DNA from: an uncultured Pseudomonadota bacterium
GTDB taxonomy: Bacteria > Pseudomonadota > Alphaproteobacteria > Rs-D84
DNA length: 64,000 bases
Direction of reading: 5' to 3'
NCBI GenBank assembly: GCA_949296475.1
Contig: CASFOK010000007.1
Coordinates: forward strand, 9,448 to 73,447
The first letter of the stretch is position 1, and every line of letters starts with the position of its first letter. Shown here one piece after another: positions 3,663 through 42,043 of the stretch. The notes under the pieces are model-generated. The model worked only from the letters and a program-made list of their open reading frames with translations. It did not search any database and was not told where the DNA came from. Both the position numbers and the translations under genes were made by a program.

Positions 3663-6155
3663 TTACATAACGATATCTTCACATACAGGATCCGACACTT
3701 CTGTTGTACATTCTGTATTCCGGCTGTTATGGAACCAACTGCTACTACCTGTTGTCTTACAATTTTCTTTTGATATCGTTGTACATATATGGCAAGTTCT
3801 TGTATCACGACTAAATATCGCAGTTACTTCTTTAGTCATTCCACCACCGCTTAAACTTGAGCCCCCCAAATATCCGCTATTAGAAAACTTTATACCACCC
3901 GATTTGACAACTCCTGTTCCACCATTCGTTAAATCTTCAACAGACAATCCAGCACCGACATCATAACTGATAGAATATGGCGGAGTTAATGGTGTTGTTG
4001 CACCAGTACTTATACCCAAATCACTGCCACCATTTTCTGCAATCTTTTGACACATATACTGCGCCAAATCTACAGAAGCATTTTTGGTAGCATCCGCAAT
4101 CGCCGTATTTAATTTTTCGTTATAATTATCCTGGGCCTGACGCAACGCGGCAACCGCAATTTGCATTTTTACTTGATTCAATAGATTTGGAAAACGTCCC
4201 GTTGTTTTTGCACCGGATTTACCTGTTATTTGCGATAAATCACGACCGTTTACACAGAATTGAATTTCGGGGTCTTCTTCTATCATCGCAATTGTGCGAT
4301 TGATTGTTCCTGCGATATTATTCAATTCTTCTTCTATGGACGATATGATACCGTCTGCATTTGCGACAGTTGCGTTTTTCTCGCGGATTTTGGCAATGTA
4401 TTCTTGGACGCCGATTTCACCTGGTCCCAATTTTACATTTCCGTCGTCGCCAGAATCAACCGTTTTACCAGACGAATCACCCATTTTTATGCTGCCAAAA
4501 GAAATCATACCTGTTACGCGATATATATTGCCGTCTTTTTGAGAACGTAAAGAACCCGTTCCCAACGTATCATCGGCAGCAAACTTGTTACAATCGGTTG
4601 TACTGCCACAAACCTCGGTCATCTTTTGATCAACTAAATTCTGACACTGTTCAATTGCGGCATTATCAATATTCAAATACAACCCCATTAACATGCCATC
4701 CAAATCGTCCATAGAGAAATTTGGATTATTTGCCTTGCATACGACCAAAGAATCTAACGGACAAATGTCATGAATATAGTCATAGTCCATACCAATGCAA
4801 TTTTCAAAGTTAGTACCACAACGCGTATCCGCAGTAAAGCAGTCTTTTACTTCTTGGGTACAAGCATCTACACGCATTGCCGCCAACTTATCTTCAACAT
4901 ATCCCCAAATAAGCGGTTCCATTCTTTCACAAGGGTCTATTTCAACCTTACAAAAACTGCGCGCCATATCGGGACGCGATAAACAGGCGTCCATTGTTGC
5001 GACTCCCTTGCCCGCGATATCGTCTTTACACGCCTGTTGAATACAATTAGAAATGTTGGTCAAACAAGACTGACGGAACTTTGATTCTGCCTGGCTTTCG
5101 GCAAGTCTAATGGTTGGCGCAGCTTCGCGCAAGAAATTTGGCCAAACCATATCACGAACTGCAACGCAGTTATCTAACACATTTTCACAGATTACTCGTT
5201 TTGAATTTAAAACGTCCATCGTAGAAGCAGTTATGTCATATGTTTCAACGCTTTGAACCTTTGTTCCAGCAGTACTTACTGTTTCATTATTTTGCATATT
5301 TTCTGACGCAACAATAGAAACGCAGTTTTCCCAGTTTTCACCACAAGCATCATTTGTCAACATACACTTCTTAAATTCTACCATGCATTGACCCAAATCA
5401 TATTTATTTGATTCTTCAAAGCTGTCTTGCAATGCCTGTCTGACTGCGGATTCCGCGCTTGCCAATTCAGCCTCGGCTTCGGATTTCTTTTTAGTCAACG
5501 TATTTTTAAAACCTAAACAATCGGATGTTATTTGTCTGGAATACAACTGTTCCAAGAAAGGCAAATCCCCAGAACAAGATTCTGGTAACTGGGCGTTACA
5601 TAAATCTTTGGCGGCTTTGTATAATTCATTACCAGTTTTATCCGCAAGACTTGTAACCCCGCTTTCTTCGTCATCATCATAAGTATCATTTTCAAACAAA
5701 GCCAATAAACTTGCACGTTCTTGCGCTTTTTTTTCTTCCGCCGTCATTTCTGTATCAGACATTATGTTTCCATCTGCGTCGTACCTGCGTTCACCAGTAA
5801 AAATAATGTCTGCATTTGCCCCGGCTTTTACGCGTTCAACCTCTACCGTTTTGATACGATTCGCCTCGGTCAACATATCCTGAATTTCTGCAAAATCCTT
5901 TTCATATTGAATGCTGTCATCGCTGCAAGTACAACTGCCACCATTAGAATTATCTGTTATACAAAACTGATCCATACAACCAAAATAAGCATTATAACAT
6001 TCTTGGTCATATAACCCTGTGGTTTCTGTACGTGTACGGACGGTTGTTCCCTGCTGAATTGCAGATTGTTTCTTGGCAGTCGTTGCCGCATAAACTGCGC
6101 CAATAAACATACACATTACACATGATACAGGAACAATCGTTTTTCTTAGTTTCAT
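3663..6155 (-). CDS. Large secreted cysteine-rich coiled-coil protein, uncharacterised paralog family (P1)
   Basis: Signal peptide MKLRKTIVPVSCVMCMFIGAVYA. Head motif ECYNAYFGCMDQFCITDNSNGGSCTCS. I count about 36 Cys in the mature part. It is collinear with the protein at 37255-40332. Start trimmed to the ATG at 6153-6155. Confidence 0.85.
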   Translation of the reverse strand: MKLRKTIVPVSCVMCMFIGAVYAATTAKKQSAIQQGTTVRTRTETTGLYDQECYNAYFGCMDQFCITDNSNGGSCTCSDDSIQYEKDFAEIQDMLTEANRIKTVEVERVKAGANADIIFTGERRYDADGNIMSDTEMTAEEKKAQERASLLALFENDTYDDDEESGVTSLADKTGNELYKAAKDLCNAQLPESCSGDLPFLEQLYSRQITSDCLGFKNTLTKKKSEAEAELASAESAVRQALQDSFEESNKYDLGQCMVEFKKCMLTNDACGENWENCVSIVASENMQNNETVSTAGTKVQSVETYDITASTMDVLNSKRVICENVLDNCVAVRDMVWPNFLREAAPTIRLAESQAESKFRQSCLTNISNCIQQACKDDIAGKGVATMDACLSRPDMARSFCKVEIDPCERMEPLIWGYVEDKLAAMRVDACTQEVKDCFTADTRCGTNFENCIGMDYDYIHDICPLDSLVVCKANNPNFSMDDLDGMLMGLYLNIDNAAIEQCQNLVDQKMTEVCGSTTDCNKFAADDTLGTGSLRSQKDGNIYRVTGMISFGSIKMGDSSGKTVDSGDDGNVKLGPGEIGVQEYIAKIREKNATVANADGIISSIEEELNNIAGTINRTIAMIEEDPEIQFCVNGRDLSQITGKSGAKTTGRFPNLLNQVKMQIAVAALRQAQDNYNEKLNTAIADATKNASVDLAQYMCQKIAENGGSDLGISTGATTPLTPPYSISYDVGAGLSVEDLTNGGTGVVKSGGIKFSNSGYLGGSSLSGGGMTKEVTAIFSRDTRTCHICTTISKENCKTTGSSSWFHNSRNTECTTEVSDPVCEDIVM

Positions 6156-6171: not shown

Positions 6172-6222
6172 TTTGTACATATGTTGTACAAACAAACATG
6201 TAATTCGCTGACGAATTACATG
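6172..6222 (-). terminator. Two adjacent hairpins at the P2/P1 junction (possible attenuator or terminator)
   Basis: Perfect 11-bp stem CATGTAATTCG/CGAATTACATG (6197-6222) spans the P2 stop and is followed on the minus strand by TTTGTTTGT. An 8-bp stem TTTGTACA/TGTACAAA follows at 6172-6192. Confidence 0.4.
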
Positions 6223-8381
6223 TTAACGTCTTCGCAAGATTCAATTTCTTGACAGAATTCTTCCTCGCCCGCGGCACTACGTCCTGCGAAGAAACCGCCA
6301 ACTGCACCGACGACACCACCGATTGCAGTACCCCAACCTGGCGTAACAATTGTACCGGCAGCCGCGCCAGCAGACAGACCGCCTGCCAACCCCTTTAATC
6401 CGGCAGTCCCCTTGCTTTCACCGCCTACCTCGCAAACCTGCTGCATGCGACATACATGGCAGTTTCGCAAATCCGGTTCAAAAGAAACGCTTCTTATGTA
6501 ACTGTAATTACCGCTTTTAGAACTCGGCGTTTCAACTTTATATGTATTATAGCAATTTTTTTCTGCTTCTTCTAAATCCTGCTGACGTGATAGTTCGGCA
6601 ATTTTTGTTTCCAGTTCACGCATAGCACGGTTTTCTGCATTTATCTGCGCAATCATTTTTGCGCTATTAAATACGGTACTTCCCAAACTTTTACGATCGG
6701 CTGGTTTTTGACTATCTTGACAAGCAGCCACTGTTATATCTTGTTCAAACTGTTTAAAGAATTCATTTACGGTGTTTTCTGTATTTGCGCGAACCGTTTC
6801 ACGCAACTCCGCCAAACCTTGTTCTGTATCTGGAACGGAAACCAAAGATACGATTTTTGTATCGGTCGGCAAGCAAGACATATCCGTACCGCAAACAGCA
6901 CCCAATTGTTCACCAAAATAATTCAAGCACCCCTGCAACATCTGATAATCCATCTGCAATAACGCCGCTTGCACAATGATATCAAACTGTGTTTCATTTT
7001 TACAAGACGGGAACATAGTCTGCGGACATAATTGCGCTATTTCATTTGCGCTTTTCCCAACACATTCCGGCGCTGTGAAGTTTTCACCACACCTGTCGCG
7101 TAAACATTGGTCAATATCATTTTGACAAAACTGAGTACGCAAATACCCCAACTTATCATTTACAACTGTCTTTATACCCGGGATCATGGCCTCGCATTCA
7201 TCAATCACAGGGCATATCCCAGCCGCAACATTAACATCTGTTAAGCAAGCTGAATTTGTATCCGTAGAACAACTATCTTCTAAGCAAACTTGTATTCTTG
7301 CCAAACATGTTCCACGTGCATTTTTATCTGCATACTTTGCAGCATCTGCCAATATACTTTTAGATTCTGCTTCCCAATCTTGTAACACATATTCGCGTAC
7401 CGCCATACATTGATCCAAAACATTTTCGCACGCATTTGCACGTCTTCCCAACAAGTCGGCGTCTAAGCAATTTTCAAAATTAACACCGCATCCGCCTTTA
7501 TCGGCAATACAAGCACGATACGCCAACAAACATTCACCACGATTATACTTATTAGTCGTATCCAACATTTCAAGACGCGCTTGACGAACTGCAGCCTCGG
7601 CCGTACGTTTATTAGACGTTGCGATAGATTTCTGGTCATTTAAATAAGACTCAAAAGCCTTACAATCTTGCACTATTTGACGCGCATACAACATTTCTTC
7701 CATTTCGGCACTACTGCCACAAGCATCTAACTGACTGGCACAGAAATCGGCCGCCATAGAATACAAACCGTCACCTATCAAATCATCTGCGCCAAGACTG
7801 GCCTCTGTTTCAGTACCGCTGTTAATCCAATCAGCAAAACTTATTCCTGACGCCTTTGAACTTTTTTGCGCCTGCGCACTTTCACCGAACACCAATTTTG
7901 CCTGCGCACCAAGTTGTTCACGCTCTACCCCTTCGGTATAAAGCAAGTCAGCCTCTTCTTGTAAATCTTGAATTTCTTGAATCAACGACTTTGACTGACG
8001 AATATTGTCCGAACAAGCGCACCTGCTTCCTTCTGATTCATCAAGCAAACAAAACTCATCCATACAAGCACGATATGCATCCCTACAACTTGTACTTGTT
8101 GCGGTGCCGTCACCGTTATCACTACCGTTCGTCGTGCCGTTGTTGGTTGTACCCCCGCTTGAACTGCCACCACCGCTTGTACCACCAGGATTAGTAGACA
8201 CCGTCGGATTAGTTGGTATTGAATTATTAGCGCTGGTTATGTTTGTTGCCATATTAGGCGTCCGAGCCCCAGCCTGCGACATACGCGTTACACCAACCCT
8301 TACACTGGAATCACTGCGATCTGCACCAAAAGCTAATCCTGGCACAGTCATAAGAAACGCTAAAAACAAACCTAATTTCAT
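6216..8381 (-). CDS. Large secreted cysteine-rich protein with C-terminal glycine zipper, uncharacterised paralog family (P2)
   Basis: Signal peptide MKLGLFLAFLMTVPGLAFGA. S/G/T/N-rich linker. Head motif SCRDAYRACMDEFCLLDESEGSRCACS. C-terminus GWGTAIGGVVGAVGGFFAG...CQEIESCEDVNM. Confidence 0.85.
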   Translation of the reverse strand: MKLGLFLAFLMTVPGLAFGADRSDSSVRVGVTRMSQAGARTPNMATNITSANNSIPTNPTVSTNPGGTSGGGSSSGGTTNNGTTNGSDNGDGTATSTSCRDAYRACMDEFCLLDESEGSRCACSDNIRQSKSLIQEIQDLQEEADLLYTEGVEREQLGAQAKLVFGESAQAQKSSKASGISFADWINSGTETEASLGADDLIGDGLYSMAADFCASQLDACGSSAEMEEMLYARQIVQDCKAFESYLNDQKSIATSNKRTAEAAVRQARLEMLDTTNKYNRGECLLAYRACIADKGGCGVNFENCLDADLLGRRANACENVLDQCMAVREYVLQDWEAESKSILADAAKYADKNARGTCLARIQVCLEDSCSTDTNSACLTDVNVAAGICPVIDECEAMIPGIKTVVNDKLGYLRTQFCQNDIDQCLRDRCGENFTAPECVGKSANEIAQLCPQTMFPSCKNETQFDIIVQAALLQMDYQMLQGCLNYFGEQLGAVCGTDMSCLPTDTKIVSLVSVPDTEQGLAELRETVRANTENTVNEFFKQFEQDITVAACQDSQKPADRKSLGSTVFNSAKMIAQINAENRAMRELETKIAELSRQQDLEEAEKNCYNTYKVETPSSKSGNYSYIRSVSFEPDLRNCHVCRMQQVCEVGGESKGTAGLKGLAGGLSAGAAAGTIVTPGWGTAIGGVVGAVGGFFAGRSAAGEEEFCQEIESCEDVNM

Positions 8382-8852: not shown

Positions 8853-11306
8853 ATGAAAAAGAATTTACTTTTTATACTTATGTGTCTTTTATGCATTGAC
8901 AACGTCAATGCTGCTGTTCGTAATGAAACAGCAATAAGCCGTACCACCAGCGATAACGTAACAACGAATGCAATCGTCGCAAGAACAGCAACACCACAAA
9001 CGACAAGAACAAACAATTCACAAACGACTACGCGCACATCAGGTTCATCAACTGCACGTAATGCAGGGAACACCGTTAACCGCAGTGCAACTAATAGGAC
9101 AACTGTACAACAAAATGTTTCACGCAGTGCGACTAATCCGCGCAGCAACGCAACTACGTCTTCCGCTGCCAGAACCGCGACGAACGCATCGGTTGTACGC
9201 AGTGCTACGAACGCCAGAAAAACAGTCGCGAATATATCACAAGAATTTTCCAAGGCATCTATCGCACGCGCAACAACGCAGGCAACAAATACATTTGGTA
9301 CTGGATATAACATTTGTCGCGACGCTTACTTTACATGTATGGATCAGTTTTGTGCAAATGCAAATACCACATATCGCAGATGTGTATGTTCATCACGCTT
9401 AACAGATATACAAGATAAAGAACGCGCATTATCCCAAGCATCCACACAACTGCAAGATTTCAAAGATTTAAATATAGAGGTTATCCCAAAAACCGCTGCG
9501 GAAGTAAACGCAATGATATCCGCAAGCGAAGGTGAAAGTTCACTTTCTATGACCAAAAATACAACATCGGAAACATTGGCAGGCATCAGTGAAATATTAA
9601 GTTCAAACAAATCCAAATCTTTATCAACGCTTGGGACACTGGACATAGCAGGCGACATAAATCAAATTTGGGCAACAACTGATTTAGCATCAGGTCAGGC
9701 AATTTCTAGCCTAATGGGTGAATCGTTGTACAACGCAGTTCATGCGCAATGCTCGGAATTGGTAAAGACGAACTGCGGTGACAACACAACGCTACAAATG
9801 GTTGTATCGGCATATGGAATGTACATAGAAAACGATTGCACTACTTTGTTAAATACGTTGGATTCACAATTACAAAAAGCAAACAGCACCATACGTGAGA
9901 CAGAACGTGAAATGAATCTAGCAAGGCTAGAAAATTATAATGCGCACAACTCTACTGCTATAAACGATTGCATTGCACAGGTACGCAAAGACATAACAGC
10001 CGATACCGCATGCGGTACAGATTATGTCCACTGCTTGGATATCACAGGCAGATATCTTAACCATGACACCGGTGAACCGATTTATTCAAGGGATTTTTAT
10101 CAATTACAGAATCAAACTTCTTTGGACGGCGACGTATTGACGAACCCAACGAATCGCATGCTGGTAGCAGAATTAAACCGCAAGCGCGCGTTTGCAGAAA
10201 AAGGTCTGTCAACGTGCCAAGACATTGCTGACGAGGTATGGGACGAATTCATGCGCCAAGCAATTACAGAAATATACCAAGGGCAACAGGCAAAAATCAG
10301 AGACGTCAAAAATGATTGCCTTGATACTGTTAACTTATGCTACGACGAACAGAGTGAATCTTTGAAAGACTTTAGTAATATCAAAGAAGAATTATTATTG
10401 GGTTCCAGATTGGAATTATCAGAAGAACTATGCCAAGAAAAACTGTATGCATGCAGTAATTTATACGGTGATCCCAACGGTGATGGCCTTGATTTGTTGA
10501 TATCTGCGATGCACGACATAACAGACCAAAAGATTGCCAAAGAATGTCGGACACTATTGGAAGAATATGCCCAAGATTTGTGTACCGTGCCCAGCAACGA
10601 CAGCCTGCATTCTTATCCGTACGCCTGTCGCGTTTATGCACCTGGCGACCAAATTTACGCATCAAATTGGTATTGCAATCAATTACAATGGTCTACAAAC
10701 ACAGGCGGCACAACAGACGATTCAATTGGCCCCGCGCCCGCCAATGGTTATAACTGTCCGACATTCAAAAGGTACAAATCGTGTAATTTTGGATATTACC
10801 TTGCCACACTACAAACAGACGGAAATTGGATATACACATCAACGCCAATGTTTAATAACGCATGTATCAGATGTCCGTCTAACGCGCAATGCGCCGGTGG
10901 AACGACGGGCCCCGTATACGGCGATGAAAGCGGTGACGGTTCAGGTGCACCAGACTGCGGGACAGACTATGCGGGCAGTTTATATCAAAAGGTTGTAAAA
11001 TACGCAACCCAGGTATGCATACGTCCATCGGAACTAGAAAACATCATATCAGGGAAAACACAACTGCCCACAAATATATTAGAAGACGTAAATGTGGTAA
11101 TGGATTCAATTCGTGTATCCATGTCACAGTCTTTATCGGCAGAATGTGACAGGCTTGGTGGCACATGGGTAAACACACCATGGGTAGAGGGCTCAACCGG
11201 CGGTACAACGTTATTTAAAGCGTTCTATGATGAAACAGGCGCAAATACTAAGTGGGGATATTGTGCAGACCCCAGCAGCATTTCAACATTAAATTCTGGT
11301 AACTAG
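8853..11306 (+). CDS. Large secreted cysteine-rich protein, uncharacterised paralog family (P3)
   Basis: Signal peptide MKKNLLFILMCLLCIDNVNA. RSAT(N)-type repeat linker. Head motif ICRDAYFTCMDQFCANANTTYRRCVCS. Many paired Cys. CxxC-rich C-terminal module. Confidence 0.85.
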   Translation: MKKNLLFILMCLLCIDNVNAAVRNETAISRTTSDNVTTNAIVARTATPQTTRTNNSQTTTRTSGSSTARNAGNTVNRSATNRTTVQQNVSRSATNPRSNATTSSAARTATNASVVRSATNARKTVANISQEFSKASIARATTQATNTFGTGYNICRDAYFTCMDQFCANANTTYRRCVCSSRLTDIQDKERALSQASTQLQDFKDLNIEVIPKTAAEVNAMISASEGESSLSMTKNTTSETLAGISEILSSNKSKSLSTLGTLDIAGDINQIWATTDLASGQAISSLMGESLYNAVHAQCSELVKTNCGDNTTLQMVVSAYGMYIENDCTTLLNTLDSQLQKANSTIRETEREMNLARLENYNAHNSTAINDCIAQVRKDITADTACGTDYVHCLDITGRYLNHDTGEPIYSRDFYQLQNQTSLDGDVLTNPTNRMLVAELNRKRAFAEKGLSTCQDIADEVWDEFMRQAITEIYQGQQAKIRDVKNDCLDTVNLCYDEQSESLKDFSNIKEELLLGSRLELSEELCQEKLYACSNLYGDPNGDGLDLLISAMHDITDQKIAKECRTLLEEYAQDLCTVPSNDSLHSYPYACRVYAPGDQIYASNWYCNQLQWSTNTGGTTDDSIGPAPANGYNCPTFKRYKSCNFGYYLATLQTDGNWIYTSTPMFNNACIRCPSNAQCAGGTTGPVYGDESGDGSGAPDCGTDYAGSLYQKVVKYATQVCIRPSELENIISGKTQLPTNILEDVNVVMDSIRVSMSQSLSAECDRLGGTWVNTPWVEGSTGGTTLFKAFYDETGANTKWGYCADPSSISTLNSGN

Positions 11307-28853: not shown

Positions 28854-29720
28854 ATGGTAAAAAAAATCGCGTTTTTAATATCTGGTATATTATTATACCC
28901 TGGTTTATCGCTTGCTGCGACTTGTTCGCAAGCAAATTTGACGCGTTGCCTTGATTCTGTATGTGCGATAAACGTATCGTCTAACCCTGCGGCTCGTTGC
29001 CAATATTGTGGTACGTCCAGTGCCGGCAGTCCAGACACAAAAAACGCCATGCGCAGTTTATCGCTTGGGCAATCTGCGAAATATACACTTAGTGAAAAAG
29101 AATTGGACAAGGCGCCCACCGACCCGGGCAAGCGTTATATATGGGCAACGGAACAATGTATAAAAAAGATAGAGGGTTGCACCGCCGAAGACGTATCCGA
29201 CACATATGATAAATTAATAGAACAATCTTGCAAGGCCGCCGGTATAAACGCCCAAATGGCCGCATTGCGTGCCGACGCAAACAAGACGGTCAGTAAGACG
29301 ACCTGTTCTACGGACATAACGTCATGTATGGTTGACAGCAAACGTTGCGGTCCTGATTATCGTTCTTGTGCAAACGATTCGGAATTTAATAATTTCTTTG
29401 CCTATTGTTCTGTAGAGGCCAAGGGTTGCGACGAATACATATCTGACATTCGTTCTGATTTAATATCGCTTCGCGATAACACCATCAAAAACGCGGACTT
29501 GGCCATAGACAATATTGTGTCTGCATATCAAAATGCACGTACTAAAAAAGTATCAGACGCGCAAGATTCTTGTACAAATAACGCTGCACGCGACAGTTGC
29601 GTCAAGACGGTATGCGAACGCAACATGCCAAACAAATGTGGCGAAGGTTACGAATCAGAAAAAAGCGCGGCGACACAATTCTGTAAATTTTATGAATTGG
29701 CCTGCGACGTATTAAAATAG
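28854..29720 (+). CDS. Secreted cysteine-rich protein, short member of the family (P6)
   Basis: Signal MVKKIAFLISGILLYPGLSLA. Degenerate head motif CSQANLTRCLDSVCAINVSSNPAARCQYC. Paired Cys throughout. Confidence 0.8.
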   Translation: MVKKIAFLISGILLYPGLSLAATCSQANLTRCLDSVCAINVSSNPAARCQYCGTSSAGSPDTKNAMRSLSLGQSAKYTLSEKELDKAPTDPGKRYIWATEQCIKKIEGCTAEDVSDTYDKLIEQSCKAAGINAQMAALRADANKTVSKTTCSTDITSCMVDSKRCGPDYRSCANDSEFNNFFAYCSVEAKGCDEYISDIRSDLISLRDNTIKNADLAIDNIVSAYQNARTKKVSDAQDSCTNNAARDSCVKTVCERNMPNKCGEGYESEKSAATQFCKFYELACDVLK

Positions 29721-29727: not shown

Positions 29728-31338
29728 ATGACGATACGAAGAAAAACTTTTAACGACAAAAAAACAAACGCTTGGTACAAGTCAAGTGGTGTGGTATGTA
29801 TGGCGGTTATATGTTTATACAGCATGCATGCTAGCGGTGCCTCGGTTGTTCAGCGCGAAGTTGCGGCCAGACCGACAGCGGTATCAAATCGTCCGAATAC
29901 GTCTGCACGTATGCCTACGATGGCGACACAAATAGCAGAGACAGTGACCACAACGGAAACAACAACAAACACAGATAATACAACAAGTTCAGAACTCGTT
30001 GATACATCTGACACGACAGAAGAAGAAATCGTCATAGAAAACAAATCGTCGCAATTTTCTGACGTTCTTGGCAACGCCAGCGTATCCAGCCAATCTGATA
30101 CAAGCGACACCGAATTAGCGGAAATGATTCGTCGTCAACGGGCGGCCTTGGACGCAGAATCCGCGGTTAGCACGGTAACGCAATCAACGCAGGCGTCACT
30201 ATCTACTGGTCAAAACGCATGCGACGTTGCATTACGTAAATGTATGCAGGGCAAATGCGGTAACGACTTTTCAAAGTGCAGTAGCGACACGGACACCGCA
30301 TGGGGCAACAAAATGGATTCTTGCCGTCTTGACACAGAATGCACGGGTACAGAGTACAGCAAATTTGCACCGGAAATAAAAGCGGACCGTGACACAAACG
30401 CCCAACTGGCACTATATAACTCTATACTTGATTGCGGTAACAGATATAACGATTGCATTGTCACCCAATGTGGCACGACGTTCAGCAAATGCCTTGGTAA
30501 ATCTGCCGGCGACGCTGCAATATCTGCATGTTCAACGATTGCGACTGAATGCAAATCCCAAGACAGTGGTTTGGCAAGTCGTGCAATGAGTTTATTTGCG
30601 ACATTACGCGTAGACGCCGAAGAACAAGTAAAACGCGACGAAGAACGTTTATATGCATTGCGCGACAAGATGGCAGAACAATGCAACATGTTGGGCGCAA
30701 TGTTTGACGAACGCACGTTTGATTGCGTTTACACGGTTGAATTCTATGCGGGCGACAACAATACTCTGTTTGCATCAAAGAAGGCATATGCAGGTTCTTC
30801 GTTTGACTGCACGCCGAATTGGTTTGGCATAGACATAACGACGTTTAAAGAAAACGCCTATCGTACTACGCGCGCGCAGCAATCTGCGACATCTGCCTTG
30901 TTAGGTTCTGGTCTTGGTGTTGCGGCGGGTGCAGTAACGTCTGGTGCGATAGATCGTGCGATTGACAGACAAAAGGCCGAAAACGCCCTTGACAAAGCAA
31001 AAGAAGAATACGAAGAAAATTATGGTGACGGGTCTAAGTCCACAACCACACAGACAACGGTAACGACGACTAAACCGACACAGAATACATCACCAAATAC
31101 ACCCCCACAACGCGAACAGGAACAACAAAAAAATAACACAATTACAACTGATAAAGAAGGCAGAAAGACCGCGCAAATAGGTGACACAACAGTGACAACC
31201 ATGCCTATGACAGAAGCGTTCAAGCAAGTAACCGGTACCAAAAGTTTCAATGAGAAAGCAGCCGACTATCTTAATAACAACAATTCAAATGGTTTTGCCA
31301 GCAAATTATCACAAAATATTAATACAGACACAAAATGA
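29728..31338 (+). CDS. Secreted cysteine-rich protein with glycine-zipper segment (P7)
   Basis: Hydrophobic N-terminus. RMPTM linker motif. Degenerate head CDVALRKCMQGKCGNDFSKCS. ALLGSGLGVAAGAVTSGAI segment. T/Q/N-rich tail. Confidence 0.8.
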   Translation: MTIRRKTFNDKKTNAWYKSSGVVCMAVICLYSMHASGASVVQREVAARPTAVSNRPNTSARMPTMATQIAETVTTTETTTNTDNTTSSELVDTSDTTEEEIVIENKSSQFSDVLGNASVSSQSDTSDTELAEMIRRQRAALDAESAVSTVTQSTQASLSTGQNACDVALRKCMQGKCGNDFSKCSSDTDTAWGNKMDSCRLDTECTGTEYSKFAPEIKADRDTNAQLALYNSILDCGNRYNDCIVTQCGTTFSKCLGKSAGDAAISACSTIATECKSQDSGLASRAMSLFATLRVDAEEQVKRDEERLYALRDKMAEQCNMLGAMFDERTFDCVYTVEFYAGDNNTLFASKKAYAGSSFDCTPNWFGIDITTFKENAYRTTRAQQSATSALLGSGLGVAAGAVTSGAIDRAIDRQKAENALDKAKEEYEENYGDGSKSTTTQTTVTTTKPTQNTSPNTPPQREQEQQKNNTITTDKEGRKTAQIGDTTVTTMPMTEAFKQVTGTKSFNEKAADYLNNNNSNGFASKLSQNINTDTK

Positions 31339-33940: not shown

Positions 33941-33962
33941 CTTGTATAAAAAGCACTCAGAT

Positions 33963-36053: not shown

Positions 36054-36189
36054 AAAAACTCCCCCTTGTTTATCTTTGTAATTATACCCTAAAAACACAT
36101 TAAAAAAAAGCCTTTTTTGATAAATCTGTAATTAAATATAAAACATTAAAAAACTTGACAAAATACACATACTGTCTATTATATAAATT

Positions 36190-37233
36190 ATGAGCAAGAT
36201 TTTTAACCTTATCACCACGCACAAAAACGCTATCATATGGTCAGCGTGCTATTGCGTTGTGATATGGGTGATATTGCTTTGGCTGTTCAATTTTGACATA
36301 TTTTCGTTAAACGCTTGGGCACAGTTACCCAAAGCCAACCTAAATAACTTTCCGGGTCTTGTGTTTGTTATATTATTACTCGCAGCAATACCCTTGTACA
36401 TTGCGACAACGACGTTAATAATCAGAACCAAGAAGCCCTTATTTACAATACCGATACCAAAATTTCTGTATCCGGTACCAGAAAAAGAAGAAAGTACCGA
36501 ATCGAAAAAAGAAACCAAAGACAACCCCGAAACAAATCAACCAATCGCAGAGACATTACCTGCGGGCATTCCTGCCGAGTTGCGCACGCCGTTTTTACGC
36601 GCCCGCGAACACATTCGCGCAGGTATAACGACGCCCCCCGTCGTTAATAAGTACAACGAAATCGCATCTGCGGCGAACATGACTGATACAGTTTCAAGCG
36701 CCCCAAGTCCAACAACTAACAACGACGAAAAACGCGACACAACAAGCAGCGTCACAGATACAAACCTGCCTATTCCTGACGACTTTGATTTTGAGGTTCC
36801 AGACACAGACGATTCGGAATACGCCGATGAATCCATGCCGCATTTTTCGCCTGTATTTACAGACATAGACTTTGATGAAAAAGACGGGGACAGCGACGAT
36901 GACGCGACGACAGAGTCCCAAGAAACAGTGATAAAATTCCTGCAATCGCGTAAAGAGAGTTTTGAACAAGACCAAGACATAATAATCAGCGACAATTTTG
37001 TCATAGGCATTCATTCAGACCCGGACTTTTGGATAGCGGACGAAGAACTATGGTTTGCGGCTGGCAAGCAGAAAGAATCACCGATAAAGAAGATACAAGA
37101 CATTGCCTTGTCCAAGCAATTACAAGGTGTATTATATCTTGCTGAAACGAACATAATGGACCTAGATACCAAGATATCAGAATGGTCAGAATCAGGAATT
37201 AAAGTAATCAGGTCTATATCTGAACTGGGATAA
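36190..37233 (+). CDS. Membrane protein with acidic C-terminal region (hypothetical)
   Basis: Two to three N-terminal TM segments (AIIWSACYCVVIWVILLWLF, GLVFVILLLAAIPLYIATTTLII), then a D/E/T/S-rich region. No recognisable domain. Confidence 0.6.
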   Translation: MSKIFNLITTHKNAIIWSACYCVVIWVILLWLFNFDIFSLNAWAQLPKANLNNFPGLVFVILLLAAIPLYIATTTLIIRTKKPLFTIPIPKFLYPVPEKEESTESKKETKDNPETNQPIAETLPAGIPAELRTPFLRAREHIRAGITTPPVVNKYNEIASAANMTDTVSSAPSPTTNNDEKRDTTSSVTDTNLPIPDDFDFEVPDTDDSEYADESMPHFSPVFTDIDFDEKDGDSDDDATTESQETVIKFLQSRKESFEQDQDIIISDNFVIGIHSDPDFWIADEELWFAAGKQKESPIKKIQDIALSKQLQGVLYLAETNIMDLDTKISEWSESGIKVIRSISELG

Positions 37234-37254
37234 ATCAAACATAAATAAACATTA

Positions 37255-40200
37255 TTAACTTCCAAATCCTTTCGATTGTCCCAACGTACGTCTACCATAA
37301 GGATTTGAAGACTCTAAACTTGGTTGAGACAATGTACTAGATCCACCGCCTGTCGACGTATTACTACTACTCCCACTAGAAGTACTTTTTGTGCTTACAG
37401 GACTAGCAGAAGAAGATGACCCACTGTTACCAATATTGCTGATATCGCCTGTACTAATACCAAGCGAAAATCCGCCCCCATTTTTCTCTGTTACATTACT
37501 GACCGAAGATTGATCATTATAATAAGACTGTAAATTACTACGTGTAGTTAAACCAAACGACTGTTGCGACCCAACCGCAAAACTTACCAACTGCTCGGTA
37601 ATAACCGGTTCAGCATAAGTACTACAGAAATTCCCCTGATATGTATCCGAGGCTTTGGATTGAGAATATCCGGCACTTCCACCAAAAGGCCCAACCTGAG
37701 CCCCCACCTCACCACTATAACTTGCAGATTTATAATTATATATCGCCTCAAACCCTGTACATGGATATGTAGTTGTGGTTATCCTGCATGTGCTGGTACC
37801 TGGCTCATATATACCGGTAATTGTTTGTTTGCCAATCATACGACCACTAAATAACCCCTTAGATTCCACTATTACCTTTTCTACCCCTTTACTTTCCAAC
37901 AATACATTTAACATTTCATCATCTGTTACACCGTTTATAATAACAGACCAATCATTTGATTCTTTAATTCCACTGTTTTTGTTAGACAATCTTGTTGAAG
38001 CATATTCTTCACCTTGCACCAAAGCATTGCAATATATCTGATTTTTATATTCATCTGCTGTACTGATTGCCTGTGCAAACAAATTTGCGTATTGTGCGTC
38101 ATAATTTGACTTTGCCGAATCCAAAACGGCATTAGCTATCACATTCGTATAAGAATCCAACAAATGCGGGAAACGCGCAGTTGTTCTATCTACTACGTTA
38201 CGCGATGTAACACCGCGAATCTGACTCATATCACGACCGCTAACACACATTGTTATTTCTGGATCTGATGCCAATATATCTATCCGTCTTTGAATTTCAT
38301 TCTGAATACCCGTCAAAGCGGTACGGATTCTTTCCTTTGATTCATCGTTAGCATCGGCAATTTGCGACATGTATTTATTAATATCCAAATTATACTGACC
38401 ATTTGAATTTTGACCCAAAGTTAAATTGCTATATAAAATAACACCGTCTATAACATAATCACCACTGGAATTTTTATAACTTACCAAACTGTTTTTTCCT
38501 ATATTAGCATCCTGAGAAAAAATATCACAACTTGTCAAATCTCCGCACAAGGACAGCATTTTTTCATTAACTATATTTTGACACTGTTCTAGCATGGCAT
38601 TATCTATACCCAAATAAATACCTTGTAACATATAATCAATATCAACCATACTTGTTAATTCACCATTTTGTTGACATGCGACAAGTTTTTCTAAAGGACA
38701 CATTTGACGTATTGACGCCAAATCCAATCCGATACATTGTGTATAATCCTTTCCGCATCTATCATCTGCTTGCAGACATTCTTTAACAGCAGTCGTACAA
38801 GAATCCACTCTCATAGAAGCCAATCTAGCGACAACGAAATCCCAAATCTGAGATTCTTCAGCCTTTGCGACAGAAGAAGCATCAATACCGCAAGCATTTA
38901 AAGGGACCTTGCACAAATTCAACATAGTCTCTGGTCTTGTTAAACACATGTCATAAGAACCATCAGGGTCATTAGGATCAATGTTATCTTTACAAGCCTT
39001 TTGGAAGCAATCAGAAATAGATCCGATACAATTTTGTCTTGCATCGTTTTCAGCGATTAATTCTGCGGATTTTATTTGAGGTGCAATGTCTTTCAAGAAA
39101 GTGTCCCAAACTTTATCGGCGACAGCGACACAAGATTTAGTAACGCCTTCGCATAAAGGTTTTTTTGCCAATAAAGTATCATAAGTAGAAGCATAGATTT
39201 CTATGCCAGTAACAGTACCTTGAATAGTATAAGTAGCAGGTTTTCTGTTAGCTCTTTGACTGGCATTAGTATTATCAAAAGCAGCGACAGAAGCACATTT
39301 TGAAAAATCGTCGCCGCAACCAGCGGTAGTAATCATACAGTTTTTAAACTCTACGGCACATTGTCCTAAATCATACTTATTAGCAGATTGATATTGCTCT
39401 AACGCTGCACTCCTTAATGCTTGTTCTGCGGCGTACAATTTTTGCGCGCTTGAATTTTTTTGCTGTTTCAGACTATTTTCATATGCACTGCAATCCGACT
39501 TTATTTGTTGCGAATACATCAACTGTAACATTGACAATTCTGATTGACACTCTGGCACTTGTGCGACGCAAATATCATTAGCTGCCTGATACAACGCATC
39601 GCCCTCTTTGCCTTCTATGGGGTTATTAGACGCGTTTTCACCAAAGATATCATCTTCTTCATCTTCTTCGTCAACGTTCATATTCCAAAGCGACAAATCC
39701 AAAGTACGCTTTTGTTCTTCTTGACCTGCTTTTAGTATGGATTCCGCAACAGCATTTGCGTTTGCGATTGCCGCATCGGCCGCATCGCCCATTTCTATTC
39801 TTTCAACGCCAACCGTGGCCATTTGATAACTTTGTTGGTCCAGTTTTTCTATTTCCGCCAACACGGTATCCAATTCAGCGTTTTTATCACTGCAAATACA
39901 GCGACCACCGTTATCGTTATCTAACATACAGAAAGAATCCATACAACCCATGTATTTCTGACGACACGCTTCGCTAACGATTACGTTTTCCGTTGCCGAT
40001 GCAACCTTGGTTCCCGTAGAAATTACCTTTTGCGTTGTTCCAGCACGCGCAACAACACCCGTTGTCGCGGGGGCAGTTGACGCCGGCGTCGCGCTTCTTG
40101 AAACGGTTGTTCTGCCCGTGGTTGCCGACCTGGCCGGTGCAGTTGTTCTGGTACTGGTCGCACTGCGCGCAGTCGTTGCACTGCGTGCAGAAACAGCATT

Positions 40201-40332
40201 TGTCCGCGAAGATGTCGCAGCAGTTGTCCCTTCTTCTGCAGCGGCCTGACCCCGCCGTTGCTGGGGCACCGCAGCATTTGCAGACGTAATAAGCAAACCC
40301 AAAAACGCAAAAAATACAACGAAACGTTTCAT
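37255..40332 (-). CDS. Large secreted cysteine-rich coiled-coil protein, uncharacterised paralog family (P5)
   Basis: Signal MKRFVVFFAFLGLLITSANA. (A)RSAT repeat linker. Head motif ACRQKYMGCMDSFCMLDNDNGGRCICS. Collinear with P1 over most of its length (e.g. KYDLGQCAVEFKNCM vs KYDLGQCMVEFKKCM). S/G-rich tail. Confidence 0.85.
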   Translation of the reverse strand: MKRFVVFFAFLGLLITSANAAVPQQRRGQAAAEEGTTAATSSRTNAVSARSATTARSATSTRTTAPARSATTGRTTVSRSATPASTAPATTGVVARAGTTQKVISTGTKVASATENVIVSEACRQKYMGCMDSFCMLDNDNGGRCICSDKNAELDTVLAEIEKLDQQSYQMATVGVERIEMGDAADAAIANANAVAESILKAGQEEQKRTLDLSLWNMNVDEEDEEDDIFGENASNNPIEGKEGDALYQAANDICVAQVPECQSELSMLQLMYSQQIKSDCSAYENSLKQQKNSSAQKLYAAEQALRSAALEQYQSANKYDLGQCAVEFKNCMITTAGCGDDFSKCASVAAFDNTNASQRANRKPATYTIQGTVTGIEIYASTYDTLLAKKPLCEGVTKSCVAVADKVWDTFLKDIAPQIKSAELIAENDARQNCIGSISDCFQKACKDNIDPNDPDGSYDMCLTRPETMLNLCKVPLNACGIDASSVAKAEESQIWDFVVARLASMRVDSCTTAVKECLQADDRCGKDYTQCIGLDLASIRQMCPLEKLVACQQNGELTSMVDIDYMLQGIYLGIDNAMLEQCQNIVNEKMLSLCGDLTSCDIFSQDANIGKNSLVSYKNSSGDYVIDGVILYSNLTLGQNSNGQYNLDINKYMSQIADANDESKERIRTALTGIQNEIQRRIDILASDPEITMCVSGRDMSQIRGVTSRNVVDRTTARFPHLLDSYTNVIANAVLDSAKSNYDAQYANLFAQAISTADEYKNQIYCNALVQGEEYASTRLSNKNSGIKESNDWSVIINGVTDDEMLNVLLESKGVEKVIVESKGLFSGRMIGKQTITGIYEPGTSTCRITTTTYPCTGFEAIYNYKSASYSGEVGAQVGPFGGSAGYSQSKASDTYQGNFCSTYAEPVITEQLVSFAVGSQQSFGLTTRSNLQSYYNDQSSVSNVTEKNGGGFSLGISTGDISNIGNSGSSSSASPVSTKSTSSGSSSNTSTGGGSSTLSQPSLESSNPYGRRTLGQSKGFGS

Positions 40333-40482
40333 AGAAAAGCCCTCAACATTTAATGTATTTTATCATAATTACAAAAATCACACAAGAACCTTTTAACATA
40401 ATAATAAAAAATATTCAACAAGCGTATTGACAAATATATATATAGTGGTATAATAACCATATAACAAAAAAGGATAATTAAT

Positions 40483-41328
40483 ATGTCTATAAAATCTTAT
40501 GAACCAGATATCAACGTTGCAAAATCCTATTACTTCACATACAAATCTGGATTTCGCAAATATCTAAACCCAAATAAAAAAATGTTTAACGAATATTCTC
40601 CTGCCTATATAAAGACCAATGAACCGCTTAGGAAAATAACAGGTGCCACCGCTTCATTCGCAAAAGATGTTTTAACAACTGCGGCCAGTGGTGACCATCC
40701 TATTTTTTACAAATTAAATGCCGCCGAAAACATTGATACGTTTGATGTATCTTTTTGCGCCAAAGCAATCATGGACATCAAGGTTGCTGCGTTGCAAAAC
40801 GACCTATCTCTTGATCAATATACGTATCTGTTGTCACGCTTGTACAAAACAAACGACATAAAAAGCATTCCATATATGGCAGATATAATTACAAAACTGC
40901 CAAACGATACAAAACAATTCGTGACCGCAATGAACGACTATAACATATTTGGCAGCGGGAATAATATTTCTGATTCTAACAAACACACCCTGCCAACGGA
41001 ACAAGAATTTGAACTTATGAAAAAATCTATTACCAAACCGTTTAATTTTATCTGGTCTGATATCATGTCACTACATACGCACTTAACAAAGCAGTACGAT
41101 GTAATAAATCTGTCAAATATTCCAGAATATTTAACCGCCGAAAGCATTTTACAGTTATTAACCGATTTAAAGAACAACCTTAAAATCAACGGTTATTTTG
41201 TATCAGACGCGCCTTCATTTGCCGAAGATAACACAAGAAGCAAAATGATAAAGATTTTACCAGAGATTAATTCTTGGGCGATTGCCAGAATGCCGAAAGA
41301 AATTTTGTTTGTTCAAAAAATACGCTAA
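40483..41328 (+). CDS. Hypothetical protein, possibly DUF3419/BtaA-like SAM-binding fold
   Basis: VLTTAASGDHPIFYKLNAAENIDTFDVSFCAKAIMDIKVAAL loosely resembles the N-terminal nucleotide-binding motif of DUF3419 proteins. This is a weak call. Confidence 0.35.
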   Translation: MSIKSYEPDINVAKSYYFTYKSGFRKYLNPNKKMFNEYSPAYIKTNEPLRKITGATASFAKDVLTTAASGDHPIFYKLNAAENIDTFDVSFCAKAIMDIKVAALQNDLSLDQYTYLLSRLYKTNDIKSIPYMADIITKLPNDTKQFVTAMNDYNIFGSGNNISDSNKHTLPTEQEFELMKKSITKPFNFIWSDIMSLHTHLTKQYDVINLSNIPEYLTAESILQLLTDLKNNLKINGYFVSDAPSFAEDNTRSKMIKILPEINSWAIARMPKEILFVQKIR

Positions 41329-41359
41329 ATAAAAAATGCGCCGTCGGCGCATTTTTTAT
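41329..41359. terminator. Bidirectional rho-independent terminator
   Basis: A6 run, then AATGCGCC/GGCGCATT stem (41335-41353), then T5. It ends both the plus-strand gene and the ribosomal superoperon (rplQ). Confidence 0.75.
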
Positions 41360-41913: not shown

Positions 41914-42043
41914 TGATTACTCCTTTATGTTCTTCAGCCTCTACCCCGAGGATTGTTTGAGACGCCCTGACCTGAAACCACTAATTTCAGAACCAAGGAT
42001 TTTTTCGTGCCGGCGACAAACGCTTATCGCCGACACAGAATTA

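What the first reader, a model, noticed from the sequence alone, without database searches (positions are those of the whole stretch)
39889..39966. Signature head motif C-x3-Y-x2-C-M-D-x-F-C-x(7-8)-C-x-C-S conserved in four large paralogs
The four instances are as follows. P5 has ACRQKYMGCMDSFCMLDNDNGGRCICS at 39889-39966. P1 has ECYNAYFGCMDQFCITDNSNGGSCTCS at 5922-5999. P2 has SCRDAYRACMDEFCLLDESEGSRCACS at 8010-8087. P3 has ICRDAYFTCMDQFCANANTTYRRCVCS at 9315-9392. Five Cys at fixed spacing plus the invariant Y, M, D and F survive although the surrounding sequence has diverged strongly. This is the most constrained element of the family. It always sits at the boundary between the low-complexity linker and a coiled-coil-like segment. 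That placement fits a small disulfide knot or metal-binding knob used for oligomerisation or anchoring. Degenerate versions occur in P6 (28923-29009), P7 (30220-30279) and P9 (35694-35717).
Basis: seen in the sequence. Interest (0 to 1): 0.7.

Follow-up and report, generated by a model that had tools for sequence, protein, structure and literature searches.

The report
Cysteine head motif of Enterousia proteins
The motif is real: it is the invariant N-terminal signature of an undescribed family of large, exported, cysteine-rich helical proteins found so far only in the reduced-genome gut bacteria Candidatus Enterousia (order Rs-D84), and it most likely forms half of a disulfide clamp, not a free-standing knob.

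Summary
Four paralogs carry C-x3-Y-x2-C-M-D-x-F-C-x9-C-x-C-S at the stated coordinates. Three of them are on the minus strand. The loop is x9, not x7-8. The motif never arose in 50 shuffles of the window.

A profile built from the four instances finds 538 protein clusters among 1.84 billion proteins. In all 150 listed hits the match lies near the N-terminus. Named relatives come from Alphaproteobacteria or Ca. Enterousia gut MAGs. Pfam, NCBIfam, PDB sequences and Foldseek give no match.

The motif is not autonomous. It opens a rigid cysteine framework: head, an 84-134 aa variable insert, a C-x6/7-C-x18-20-C triad, 42-44 aa, then a C-x6-C-x6-CG-x2-[FY]-x2-C module, and so on.

In downstream units cysteines are lost in pairs in natural variants (C435+C481, C519+C545; C332, C394, C447 and C463 together). 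This indicates disulfides that staple antiparallel C-x6-C helices.

By analogy, the head helix is stapled to the triad and clamps the base of a helical excursion. This pairing is inferred. Cellular function and location are unknown, and oligomerisation or anchoring is untested.

The P7 and P9 "degenerate heads" are other modules. The P6 case is uncertain.

The parts
37255..40332 (-). P5 gene, 1025 aa, 34 Cys. Layout: Sec signal peptide, low-complexity linker, Cys-framework helical region (aa 121 to ~610), mixed region, beta-rich region (789-931), Ser-rich tail.
   Evidence: ORF and translation. At least 931 homologs, none with a functional name. AF2 secondary structure.
40273..40332 (-). P5 signal peptide, aa 1-20 (MKRFVVFFAFLGLLITSANA). 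Sec type, with no twin-arginine and no lipobox.
   Evidence: Read from the sequence. Predicted helix at 5-13.
39967..40272 (-). P5 low-complexity linker, aa 21-122. It is 83% S/T/A/G/N/P/R/Q and carries four RSAT repeats.
   Evidence: Composition. AF2 pLDDT below 50 for residues 13-116.
39889..39966 (-). P5 head motif, C123-S148 (CRQKYMGCMDSFCMLDNDNGGRCICS). This is the element in the finding.
   Evidence: AF2 predicts helix 121-138, a loop at 139-147, and a helix starting at 148.
39727..39891 (-). Long helices that follow the head, aa 148-202 (the coiled-coil-like segment). An acidic, low-confidence loop at 204-236 comes next.
   Evidence: AF2 helices H148-181 and H183-202, with pLDDT below 50 for 204-236.
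39490..39570 (-). P5 Cys triad, C255-x6-C262-x18-C281. Proposed partner of the head, completing an 8-Cys unit (U1).
   Evidence: The triad follows the head in 87 of 87 representatives, 84-134 aa downstream. These Cys are invariant. The pairing itself is inferred.
39130..39360 (-). Unit U2: C325-x6-C332-x6-C339-x6-C346 followed by C394-x6-C401.
   Evidence: Spacing. C332, C394, C447 and C463 are all absent in the 8-member P3 clade; this is one clade-level event and does not by itself resolve the pairs. Homologous to U4 (hhalign E = 3.8e-7).
38890..39030 (-). Unit U3: C435-x6-C442-x4-C447-x15-C463-x10-C474-x6-C481. It starts with the same C-x6-C-x4-C spacing as the head.
   Evidence: C435 and C481 are lost together in 5 divergent representatives that keep C442 and C474. 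C447 and C463 are absent in the P3 clade.
38674..38799 (-). Unit U4: C512-x6-C519-x6-C526-x6-C533-x11-C545-x7-C553.
   Evidence: C519 and C545 are lost together in 2 representatives that keep C512 and C553. Homologous to U2.
3663..6155 (-). P1 gene, about 830 aa counted from the ATG. Head motif at 5922-5999.
   Evidence: 37% identical to P5 over 717 aa.
5922..5999 (-). P1 head motif, CYNAYFGCMDQFCITDNSNGGSCTCS.
6216..8381 (-). P2 gene, 721 aa. Head motif at 8010-8087. A glycine-zipper-like segment lies near the C-terminus.
8010..8087 (-). P2 head motif, CRDAYRACMDEFCLLDESEGSRCACS.
8853..11306 (+). P3 gene, 817 aa, the most divergent head-bearing paralog. It lacks the equivalents of C332, C394, C447 and C463.
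9315..9392 (+). P3 head motif, CRDAYFTCMDQFCANANTTYRRCVCS.
28854..29720 (+). P6, 288 aa, 20 conserved Cys. A small relative of the framework. It has an N-terminal five-Cys cluster at 28923-29009 whose homology to the head is unproven.
   Evidence: At least 721 homologs. In 61 aligned sequences, 19 of the 20 Cys are invariant and C24 is replaced in one sequence that has a Cys three columns away. hhalign aligns P6 100-195 to P5 433-555, E = 2.7e-5. The head HMM gives no hit.
29728..31338 (+). P7, 536 aa. It has two C-x6-C-x4-CG-x2-F-x2-C modules (30220-30279 and 30433-30492), each followed by a Cys pair. It has no head motif.

Best explanation
The head motif is the N-terminal half of the first of four disulfide-stapled alpha-hairpin units. 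These units form the conserved core of a lineage-specific family of exported, mostly alpha-helical, cysteine-rich envelope proteins in Ca. Enterousia / order Rs-D84.

Shown:
- The proteins carry Sec-type signal peptides.
- The motif's invariant residues fall on helical stripes: C123, Y127, C130, F134 at i, i+4, i+7, i+11, and M131, C135, D138.
- AlphaFold2 predicts a helix, a 9-residue turn and then a long helix.
- The motif is always followed by a three-Cys triad at otherwise rigid spacing.
- In sister units cysteines are lost only in pairs, in the pattern outer-with-outer and inner-with-inner between two C-x6-C helices.

Inferred:
- C123 and C130 are stapled to the downstream C-x6/7-C helix, as C123-C262 and C130-C255.
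- C135-C145 closes the D-N-x-x-G-G-R turn.
- C147 bonds C281.
- S148 N-caps the long helix.
- Together these links clamp the base of the only length-variable part of the framework. That part is a helical excursion tipped by an acidic disordered loop, plausibly the exposed, diversifying region.

The role of the motif is therefore structural: it sets and locks the fold of an elongated extracytoplasmic scaffold. What the scaffold does, for example envelope structure or contact with a partner cell, is not established.
For: - The motif is real and under protein-level selection.
- It is confined to one family and to the N-terminus: 538 clusters at E <= 1e-3, and all 146 new listed hits have C-x6-C-x4-C-x9-C-x-C.
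- The framework is rigid. In 87 of 87 representatives the head is followed by an 84-134 aa gap, then the triad, then 42-44 aa, then the four-Cys module.
- Pairwise co-loss: C435+C481 in 5 divergent sequences, and C519+C545 in 2 sequences. C332, C394, C447 and C463 are all absent in the 8-member P3 clade.
- Helical prediction, with pLDDT 86/71/67 across the head.
- The signal peptides have no twin-arginine, so export of an unfolded chain is expected.
- Orthologs and gene order are conserved across Rs-D84 genomes down to about 42% identity.
- All 20 Cys positions of P6 are conserved across 61 aligned orthologs.
Against: - No head or triad cysteine is ever missing in the sequences examined, so the head pairing rests on analogy only.
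- Model coordinates could not be inspected.
- The head HMM shows no significant similarity to the other units (at most 5.6 bits; hhalign of the head against U3 is non-significant).
- Mature P3 and P7 have odd Cys counts.
- The organism is a gut anaerobe reported to lack respiratory chains (PMC12306168). The usual DsbB-quinone route for making disulfides may therefore be absent, and the presence of Dsb or VKOR genes could not be checked.
- The P3-clade co-losses are one evolutionary event and do not resolve individual pairs.
Confidence: 0.5

Rival explanations
1. The head is an inter-chain disulfide knot. It would covalently lock homo-oligomers, or hetero-oligomers of P1/P2/P3/P5, at the start of a coiled coil, or cross-link the proteins into an envelope lattice. 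Known parallels are the disulfide knots flanking the fibrinogen and laminin coiled coils and the chlamydial cysteine-rich outer-membrane complex.
For: - The head has an odd number of Cys (five) and lies directly before a long predicted helix.
- It is the one segment kept near-identical across otherwise diverged paralogs, as expected for a shared interface.
- Mature P3 and P7 have odd Cys totals.
- A Chlamydia-PMP-repeat protein is encoded nearby.
Against: - Head plus triad gives an even eight Cys, and the two always co-occur.
- The sister units behave as intramolecular pairs.
- No multimer prediction or experiment is available.
- There is no homology to OmcA or OmcB.
Confidence: 0.2
2. The head is a conserved docking surface recognised by a common partner, such as an assembly or secretion factor, another cluster protein or a host ligand. 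The cysteines would only scaffold it.
For: - Non-cysteine residues (M131, D132, S148, D138-N139, G142-G143-R144) are invariant or nearly so across paralogs, unlike in the other units.
- The head-bearing gene P5 sits in a syntenic cluster with other exported unknown proteins.
Against: - Each conserved residue has a plausible purely structural role: core stripe, turn glycines, helix caps. This is inference.
- No partner has been identified.
Confidence: 0.12
3. The head is a metal-binding cluster (Zn, Cu or Fe) rather than a set of disulfides.
For: - There are five closely spaced invariant Cys.
- The habitat is anoxic and the lineage is reported to lack respiratory chains, which makes oxidative folding less obvious.
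- One sub-threshold zinc-finger match was found, in P6 only (zf-BED, E = 0.07).
Against: - No conserved His.
- Sec-type rather than Tat-type signal peptides.
- Cysteines in the same framework are lost two at a time in an antiparallel-staple pattern, which is typical of disulfides.
- No metal-binding family matches.
Confidence: 0.1
4. The head is a divergent EGF-like domain.
For: The spacing C-x6-C-x4-C-x9-C-x-C resembles the first five Cys of EGF. Weak EGF-type Pfam matches were found (E = 0.03-0.2, 12-15 bits).
Against: - Scores are far below the 27-bit cut-offs.
- There is no sixth Cys within 84 aa.
- The conservation periodicity and the AF2 model are helical, not beta.
Confidence: 0.03

Closest known systems
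CHCH / twin-CX9C (and twin-CX3C) proteins of the mitochondrial intermembrane space
   Same: Two helices each carry a pair of Cys at a fixed helical spacing. They are stapled antiparallel, outer with outer and inner with inner. Folding takes place in an extracytoplasmic-type compartment. The co-loss pattern here fits that logic.
   Different: The spacing is x6 (one heptad), not x9 or x3. The units are arrayed four times in proteins of 700-1100 aa and each carries an extra local loop disulfide. The first unit is split by an 84-134 aa insert. These are bacterial, Sec-exported proteins. There is no sequence or fold match.
Helicobacter cysteine-rich proteins (Hcp; Sel1-like repeat family)
   Same: Secreted bacterial alpha/alpha repeat proteins in which each helical hairpin is bridged by a disulfide (from general knowledge).
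   Different: No Sel1 or other Pfam match. The Cys pattern, size and lineage all differ.
Chlamydial cysteine-rich outer-membrane complex proteins (OmcA/OmcB)
   Same: Abundant Cys-rich exported envelope proteins in a reduced-genome, host-dependent bacterium. A PMP-repeat protein is encoded nearby.
   Different: No homology. The proteins here are predicted helical. Inter-protein cross-linking has not been shown here.
Disulfide knots flanking eukaryotic extracellular coiled coils (fibrinogen, laminin)
   Same: A Cys cluster sits exactly at the boundary of a long helical or coiled segment.
   Different: Those are inter-chain links in eukaryotic proteins with different motifs. Here intrachain pairing is favoured.
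EGF-like domain
   Same: Similar spacing of the first five Cys.
   Different: Fails the HMM cut-offs, lacks the sixth Cys and is predicted helical.

Membership tests
EGF-like domain (Pfam EGF families) | HMM match above the gathering score | tested here: not met
   Best matches are EGF_Mua-3 at 14.6 bits and EGF_Pikachurin at 12.1 bits, against cut-offs of 27.
EGF-like domain (Pfam EGF families) | Six Cys, with the sixth about 8 residues after C-x-C | tested here: not met
   The next Cys lies 84-134 residues downstream in 87 of 87 representatives.
EGF-like domain (Pfam EGF families) | Beta-hairpin fold | tested here: not met
   AF2 predicts helix 121-138, then a loop, then helix 148-181 (pLDDT 67-86). 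Invariant residues follow an i, i+4, i+7, i+11 pattern.
CHCH / twin-CX9C | Two CX9C motifs in a helix-turn-helix | tested here: not met
   The spacing is C-x6-C (or x7) throughout. No CHCH Pfam match.
CHCH / twin-CX9C | Antiparallel outer-outer and inner-inner disulfide pairing between the two helices | tested here: inconclusive
   Supported for units U3 and U4 by co-loss of C435+C481 and C519+C545. The absence of C332 and C394 in the P3 clade is consistent for U2 but is not resolved from other losses in that clade. For the head itself no variants exist, so the pairing is analogy only.
Sel1-like repeat / Helicobacter cysteine-rich proteins | Sel1 repeat HMM match | tested here: not met
   No Pfam family at E <= 0.1 for P1, P3 or P5, and none relevant for P2.
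Chlamydial OmcA/OmcB cysteine-rich OMPs | Sequence family match | tested here: not met
   No Pfam or NCBIfam match.
Chlamydial OmcA/OmcB cysteine-rich OMPs | Intermolecular disulfide cross-linking in the outer-membrane complex | not testable with these tools
   This needs non-reducing biochemistry on cells.
Copper storage proteins (Csp) and other Cys-lined metal-binding helical bundles | Family HMM match. For exported members, Tat export of a folded, metal-loaded protein (the Tat point is from general knowledge). | tested here: not met
   No Pfam match. The signal peptides lack a twin-arginine. Cys are lost in pairs.
Undescribed Rs-D84 'head-motif' family (defined here) | Sec signal peptide, then a low-complexity linker, then C-x3-[YFW]-x2-C-M-D-x-F-C-x9-C-x-C | tested here: met
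   Met by P1, P2, P3 and P5. 133 of 146 new representatives match the strict pattern and 146 of 146 match the Cys pattern.
Undescribed Rs-D84 'head-motif' family (defined here) | Triad C-x6/7-C-x18-20-C at 84-134 aa after the head, followed 42-44 aa later by the next Cys module (four Cys in most members, three in the P3 clade) | tested here: met
   87 of 87 representatives. P1, P2, P3 and P5 also comply.

The most novel reading that the evidence does not exclude
Rs-D84 / Ca. Enterousia bacteria have genomes under 1 Mb and are reported to lack respiratory chains. On this reading they build a disulfide-stapled, possibly cross-linked, proteinaceous envelope or attachment structure from a private family of 'twin-CX6C' helical proteins, with the head motif as the shared assembly or locking element.

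This would imply an unrecognised route for extracytoplasmic disulfide formation in a non-respiring gut anaerobe. It would also be a functional analogue of the chlamydial cysteine-rich outer-membrane complex, evolved independently.
Probability: 0.15. Interest if true: 0.75.

Novelty: new variant of a known kind. Interest (0 to 1): 0.5.

Why it matters
Seven cysteine-rich paralogs (P1, P2, P3, P5, P6, P7, P9) occupy about 15 kb, or 23% of this window. That is roughly 1.5-2% of a genome of 0.75-1.0 Mb (genome sizes from PMC12306168). P5, P9, P7 and P6, together with the OmpA-domain protein P8, are syntenic across the lineage.

In an organism that has lost most of its metabolism, keeping this much conserved exported protein suggests it is central to the envelope or to contact with a partner or host. 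The only genomic study found for the order says that how these bacteria obtain metabolites is unknown, and it points to "hypothetical membrane-bound proteins".

The head motif gives a sharp sequence signature for finding the family. The co-loss analysis gives a testable disulfide map. The combination of a disulfide-rich exoproteome with a non-respiring anaerobe raises a concrete question about oxidative folding. If the motif is only a structural staple, the result is a useful annotation of a new family and not a new mechanism.

Tried and rejected
- Pfam and NCBIfam on all paralogs found nothing relevant.
- Pfam on the head segments alone at E <= 10 found only sub-threshold EGF-like and zinc-finger matches.
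- A profile of the P5 alignment against PDB sequences gave no hit at E <= 1.
- Foldseek against PDB gave a best E of 0.27 for the P5 model and 3.4 for the P6 model, so there is no fold match.
- hhalign of the head region against the head-like unit U3 was not significant. Only U2 against U4 is.
- The head HMM against the other units and against P6, P7 and P9 gave at most 5.6 bits. The "degenerate heads" are therefore not supported statistically.
- hhalign of P6 against P5 aligns P6 100-195 with P5 433-555 and not with the head/triad region. My by-eye equation of the P6 triad with the P5 triad is unproven.
- Literature searches for the motif strings, for Rs-D84 with "cysteine-rich", and for CX6C found no description of this family.
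- Supplements of PMC12306168 are not held, so the Dsb gene content of the lineage could not be read.
- Cluster look-up for taxonomy returned one name, "Alphaproteobacteria bacterium".
- Even/odd Cys counting as a disulfide signature was inconclusive: P1, P2, P5, P6 and P9 are even and P3 and P7 are odd.
- The AlphaFold2 coordinates could not be inspected, so Cys-Cys distances were not measured.
- Direct-coupling or mutual-information analysis was considered and dropped. There are too few independent sequences and the paralog structure is strong.
Full report
**1. Observation**

The four quoted peptides are present at the stated nucleotide coordinates. P3 is on the + strand. P5, P1 and P2 are on the minus strand; the + strand translations are nonsense and the reverse-complement translations give the quoted peptides.

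A six-frame scan finds exactly these four strict matches in the window. Fifty shuffles of the window gave none, and a mean of 0.02 for a looser five-Cys pattern.

The written pattern needs one correction. The gap between F-C and C-x-C is 9 residues in all four window copies and in all 146 new database representatives. The motif is C-x3-[YFW]-x2-C-M-D-x-F-C-x9-C-x-C, usually followed by S.

The coding DNA of the four copies is only 47-67% identical, with different synonymous codons. The conservation is therefore selection on the protein, not gene conversion.

Across the four paralogs the 26-residue head has 10 invariant columns. That is twice the density of the next best window, and it is also the densest invariant window across 61 aligned family members. 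Among P5 orthologs alone several windows are equally conserved.

**2. Source organism and family**

P5 has at least 931 homologs in the 5.8-billion-protein collection. None has a functional name, and the few that are named are "hypothetical protein [Alphaproteobacteria bacterium]" from gut MAGs.

In species-representative genomes the gene is found in 33 loci. These are labelled uncultured Alphaproteobacteria, proteobacterium or Candidatus Enterousia, from human, sheep, deer, rabbit and other guts. One locus is 98% identical to the window. One is labelled Muribaculaceae but has the same alphaproteobacterial neighbours, so it is probably a binning error.

Ca. Enterousia belongs to order Rs-D84. 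Its genomes are mostly under 1 Mb. The lineage is reported to lack biosynthetic pathways, respiratory chains and standard transporters, and is thought to depend on a partner (PMC12306168; PMC13196213).

A profile built only from the four head segments, searched against 1.84 billion representative proteins, gave 538 hits at E <= 1e-3 and 219 at E <= 1e-10. In every one of the 150 listed hits the match starts within the first ~185 residues. The proteins are either 700-1170 aa long or are fragments, and all 146 new ones carry the five-Cys pattern.

Neither is met:
- Pfam and NCBIfam find nothing.
- With the head alone, only sub-threshold EGF-like matches appear, at 12-15 bits against a 27-bit cut-off.
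- PDB sequences give no hit.
- Foldseek with AlphaFold2 models of P5 and P6 gives no significant fold match.
- Literature searches found no description of the family.

**3. Anatomy**

Each head-bearing protein starts with a Sec-type signal peptide that has no twin-arginine and no lipobox. A linker of 29-134 aa follows. It is 69-85% S/T/A/G/N/P/R/Q and is predicted disordered in P5.

The head comes next. AlphaFold2 (mean pLDDT 68, and 86/71/67 across the head) predicts a helix at 121-138, a loop at 139-147 and then helices at 148-181 and 183-202.

The invariant residues C123, Y127, C130 and F134 lie at i, i+4, i+7, i+11. M131, C135 and D138 form a second stripe. This fits a helix buried on two faces. 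S148 sits at the N-cap position of the long helix, and G142-G143-R144 lie in the turn. These structural roles are inference.

The head is not a separate module. In 87 of 87 representatives with enough downstream sequence it is followed by these elements:
- 84-134 residues, the only variable gap in the framework;
- a triad, C-x6/7-C-x18-20-C;
- 42-44 residues;
- a further Cys module, which in 79 of the 87 is a four-Cys module of the type C-x6-C-x6-CG-x2-[FY]-x2-C; the 8 P3-clade members lack its second Cys.

The framework then continues with a C-x6-C pair, a C-x6-C-x4-C...C...C-x6-C unit, and a second four-Cys module plus a pair. The two four-Cys modules are an internal duplication (hhalign E = 3.8e-7).

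**4. Evidence for disulfides and their topology**

I aligned 81 diverse family members and asked which conserved cysteines are missing together:
- C435 and C481 are replaced together in five divergent sequences (39-63% identical to one another) that keep C442 and C474.
- C519 and C545 are replaced together in two sequences that keep C512 and C553.
- The P3 clade of 8 sequences lacks C332, C394, C447 and C463. It is further rearranged around C512-C526.

Loss in pairs is expected for disulfide partners and not for cysteines of a metal site. In the two independent cases the pairs join two C-x6-C helices outer-to-outer (435-481) or inner-to-inner (519-545). This is the antiparallel staple known from twin-CXnC helical hairpins. 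The P3-clade losses are consistent with this pattern: 332-394 would be an inner staple and 447-463 a local loop. However, they are a single clade-level event and do not resolve pairs on their own.

This gives a repeating unit: a C-x6-C helix, a short local loop closed by its own disulfide, and a returning C-x6-C helix. The units are:
- U2: 325, 332 | 339, 346 | 394, 401
- U3: 435, 442 | 447, 463 | 474, 481
- U4: 512, 519 | 526, 533 | 545, 553

The head plus the triad has the same layout (123, 130 | 135, 145 | ... 255, 262) with one additional pair (147, 281). It also has a large insertion between the loop and the returning helix.

I therefore propose C123-C262, C130-C255, C135-C145 and C147-C281. 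This is inference by analogy. No sequence examined lacks any head or triad cysteine. I could not inspect model coordinates. The head shows no statistically significant sequence similarity to the other units.

**5. Most likely mechanism**

The head is the N-terminal half of a split 8-Cys clamp. The clamp fixes the base of the only length-variable excursion of the scaffold, which consists of helices 148-202 plus an acidic disordered loop at 204-236 in P5. The clamp also starts a roughly 480-residue chain of disulfide-stapled helical hairpins.

Its exceptional cross-paralog conservation would then reflect tight packing of a small multi-disulfide core. It could also reflect a shared interaction surface.

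The rivals are:
- an inter-chain knot that locks oligomers or a lattice;
- a common docking site;
- a metal site;
- an EGF-like domain, which fails its defining features.

The main caveat for any disulfide model is the biology of the host. It is an anoxic habitat and the lineage is reported to lack respiratory chains. I could not check whether it encodes DsbA, DsbB or VKOR.

**6. The "degenerate versions"**

- P7 30220-30279 is a four-Cys module, not a head.
- P9 35694-35717 is just a C-x6-C pair.
- P6 28923-29009 is a five-Cys cluster with similar spacing, located directly after the signal peptide. The head HMM does not detect it.
- Profile comparison relates P6 to the U3-U4 part of P5 (E = 2.7e-5) and not to the head region. 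Homology of the P6 cluster to the head is therefore open.

P6 is a strongly conserved protein of about 288 aa with at least 721 homologs. All 20 of its Cys positions are conserved across 61 aligned orthologs.

**7. Context**

The gene order rpoA, L17, orf40483, P5, orf36190, P9, P8, P7, P6, orf28107 and a large ankyrin-containing protein recurs, wholly or in large part, in most of the 33 related loci, down to about 42% P5 identity.

P8 has two carboxypeptidase-regulatory-like domains and an OmpA-type peptidoglycan-binding domain. P2 has a sub-threshold glycine-zipper match, and P7, P8 and P9 contain glycine-rich zipper-like segments seen in the translations. A SurA-like chaperone, a PMP-repeat protein and a MotB/OmpA-like protein are nearby.

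All of this points to the cell envelope, but localisation and function remain unknown.

**8. Verdict**

This is a real, sharply defined signature of an undescribed, lineage-restricted protein family. Its likely chemistry, disulfide-stapled helical hairpins, is of a known kind in a new arrangement. The "autonomous knob for oligomerisation or anchoring" part is not shown.

Noticed in passing
window 37558-37626 (P5 aa 903-925 region); C-termini of P0254, P0257, P0269, P0270, P0282, P0288 and others: Many family members end in a shared C-terminal motif, roughly C-x2-[FWY]-x-[ED]-P-x4-8-[QED]-x-[IV]-x-[MFY]-COOH (for example ...VCKEFSEPQTQTQVIKM). It sits at the very end in 20 of 77 full-length representatives and in 41 of 103 P5 orthologs. 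In the window's P5 it is internal (CSTYAEPVITEQLVSF, aa 903-918) and is followed by an extra Ser-rich tail of about 105 aa. P1 and P2 end with a related C-E-D-[IV]-x-M. It could be a sorting or assembly signal.
   Followed up: partly
window 39967-40272 (P5 linker); 8913-9314 (P3 linker); also P2, P7 and P9 N-terminal regions: The low-complexity linkers contain a short repeated motif, R-[ST]-A-T. There are four RSAT in P5 and five RSAT/RTAT in P3, with a median of 2 per linker in P5 orthologs. P7, P9 and P2 share a related A/Q-R-[MT]-P-[TN]-M-[AP]-T. The function is unknown.
   Followed up: partly
window 28107-43072; loci L001-L033: The gene order rpoA, L17, orf40483, P5, orf36190 (a predicted membrane protein with an acidic linker), P9, P8, P7, P6, orf28107 and the large ankyrin-containing protein is conserved across Rs-D84 genomes. 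This suggests one functional envelope gene cluster next to the ribosomal protein operons.
   Followed up: partly
L008 10367/13228; L010 10361/13151; L023 461/3509; L024 952/3978: Some related genomes carry two head-motif genes in tandem, about 2.8-3 kb apart, at the P5 position. This indicates lineage-specific duplication of the family.
   Followed up: no
window 12176-15217 (-): A 1013-aa protein with a signal peptide and Chlamydia polymorphic-membrane-protein (GGAI-type) repeats (Pfam Chlam_PMP, E = 2.3e-5). It is probably an autotransporter-like surface protein. It contains only 2 Cys, both in the N-terminal leader.
   Followed up: no
window 24298-27978 (-): A 1226-aa exported protein with N-terminal ankyrin repeats (Ank_4, E = 2.4e-5) and a long C-terminal region with no family match. 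It is conserved in related loci.
   Followed up: no
window 6276-6425 (P2 C-terminus); also P7, P8 and P9: P2 has a glycine-zipper-like segment (G-x3-G runs) with a sub-threshold Gly-zipper_Omp match (E = 0.025). Similar G-x3-G runs are visible in the translations of P7, P8 and P9. They may be membrane-associating segments.
   Followed up: no
window 11389-12093 (+): A further small exported protein (234 aa, 9 Cys) lies directly downstream of P3. It has no family match.
   Followed up: no
window 18472-19581 (+): A choloylglycine hydrolase family (bile-salt-hydrolase type) gene (Pfam CBAH, E = 8e-66) is retained in a strongly reduced gut-symbiont genome.
   Followed up: no
window 1168-3096 (+): A gene pair: a membrane protein with a weak ZorA/MotA-like match, followed by a MotB/OmpA-like peptidoglycan-binding protein with a long coiled-coil region. 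This could be a stator-like or Tol/Exb-like envelope pair.
   Followed up: no
L025 (CAYJKO010000001.1): This contig is labelled 'uncultured Muribaculaceae bacterium'. It nevertheless carries the P5 family gene with the same rpoA/L17/P9/P8/P7/P6 neighbours as the alphaproteobacterial loci, so it is probably a binning or labelling error.
   Followed up: partly
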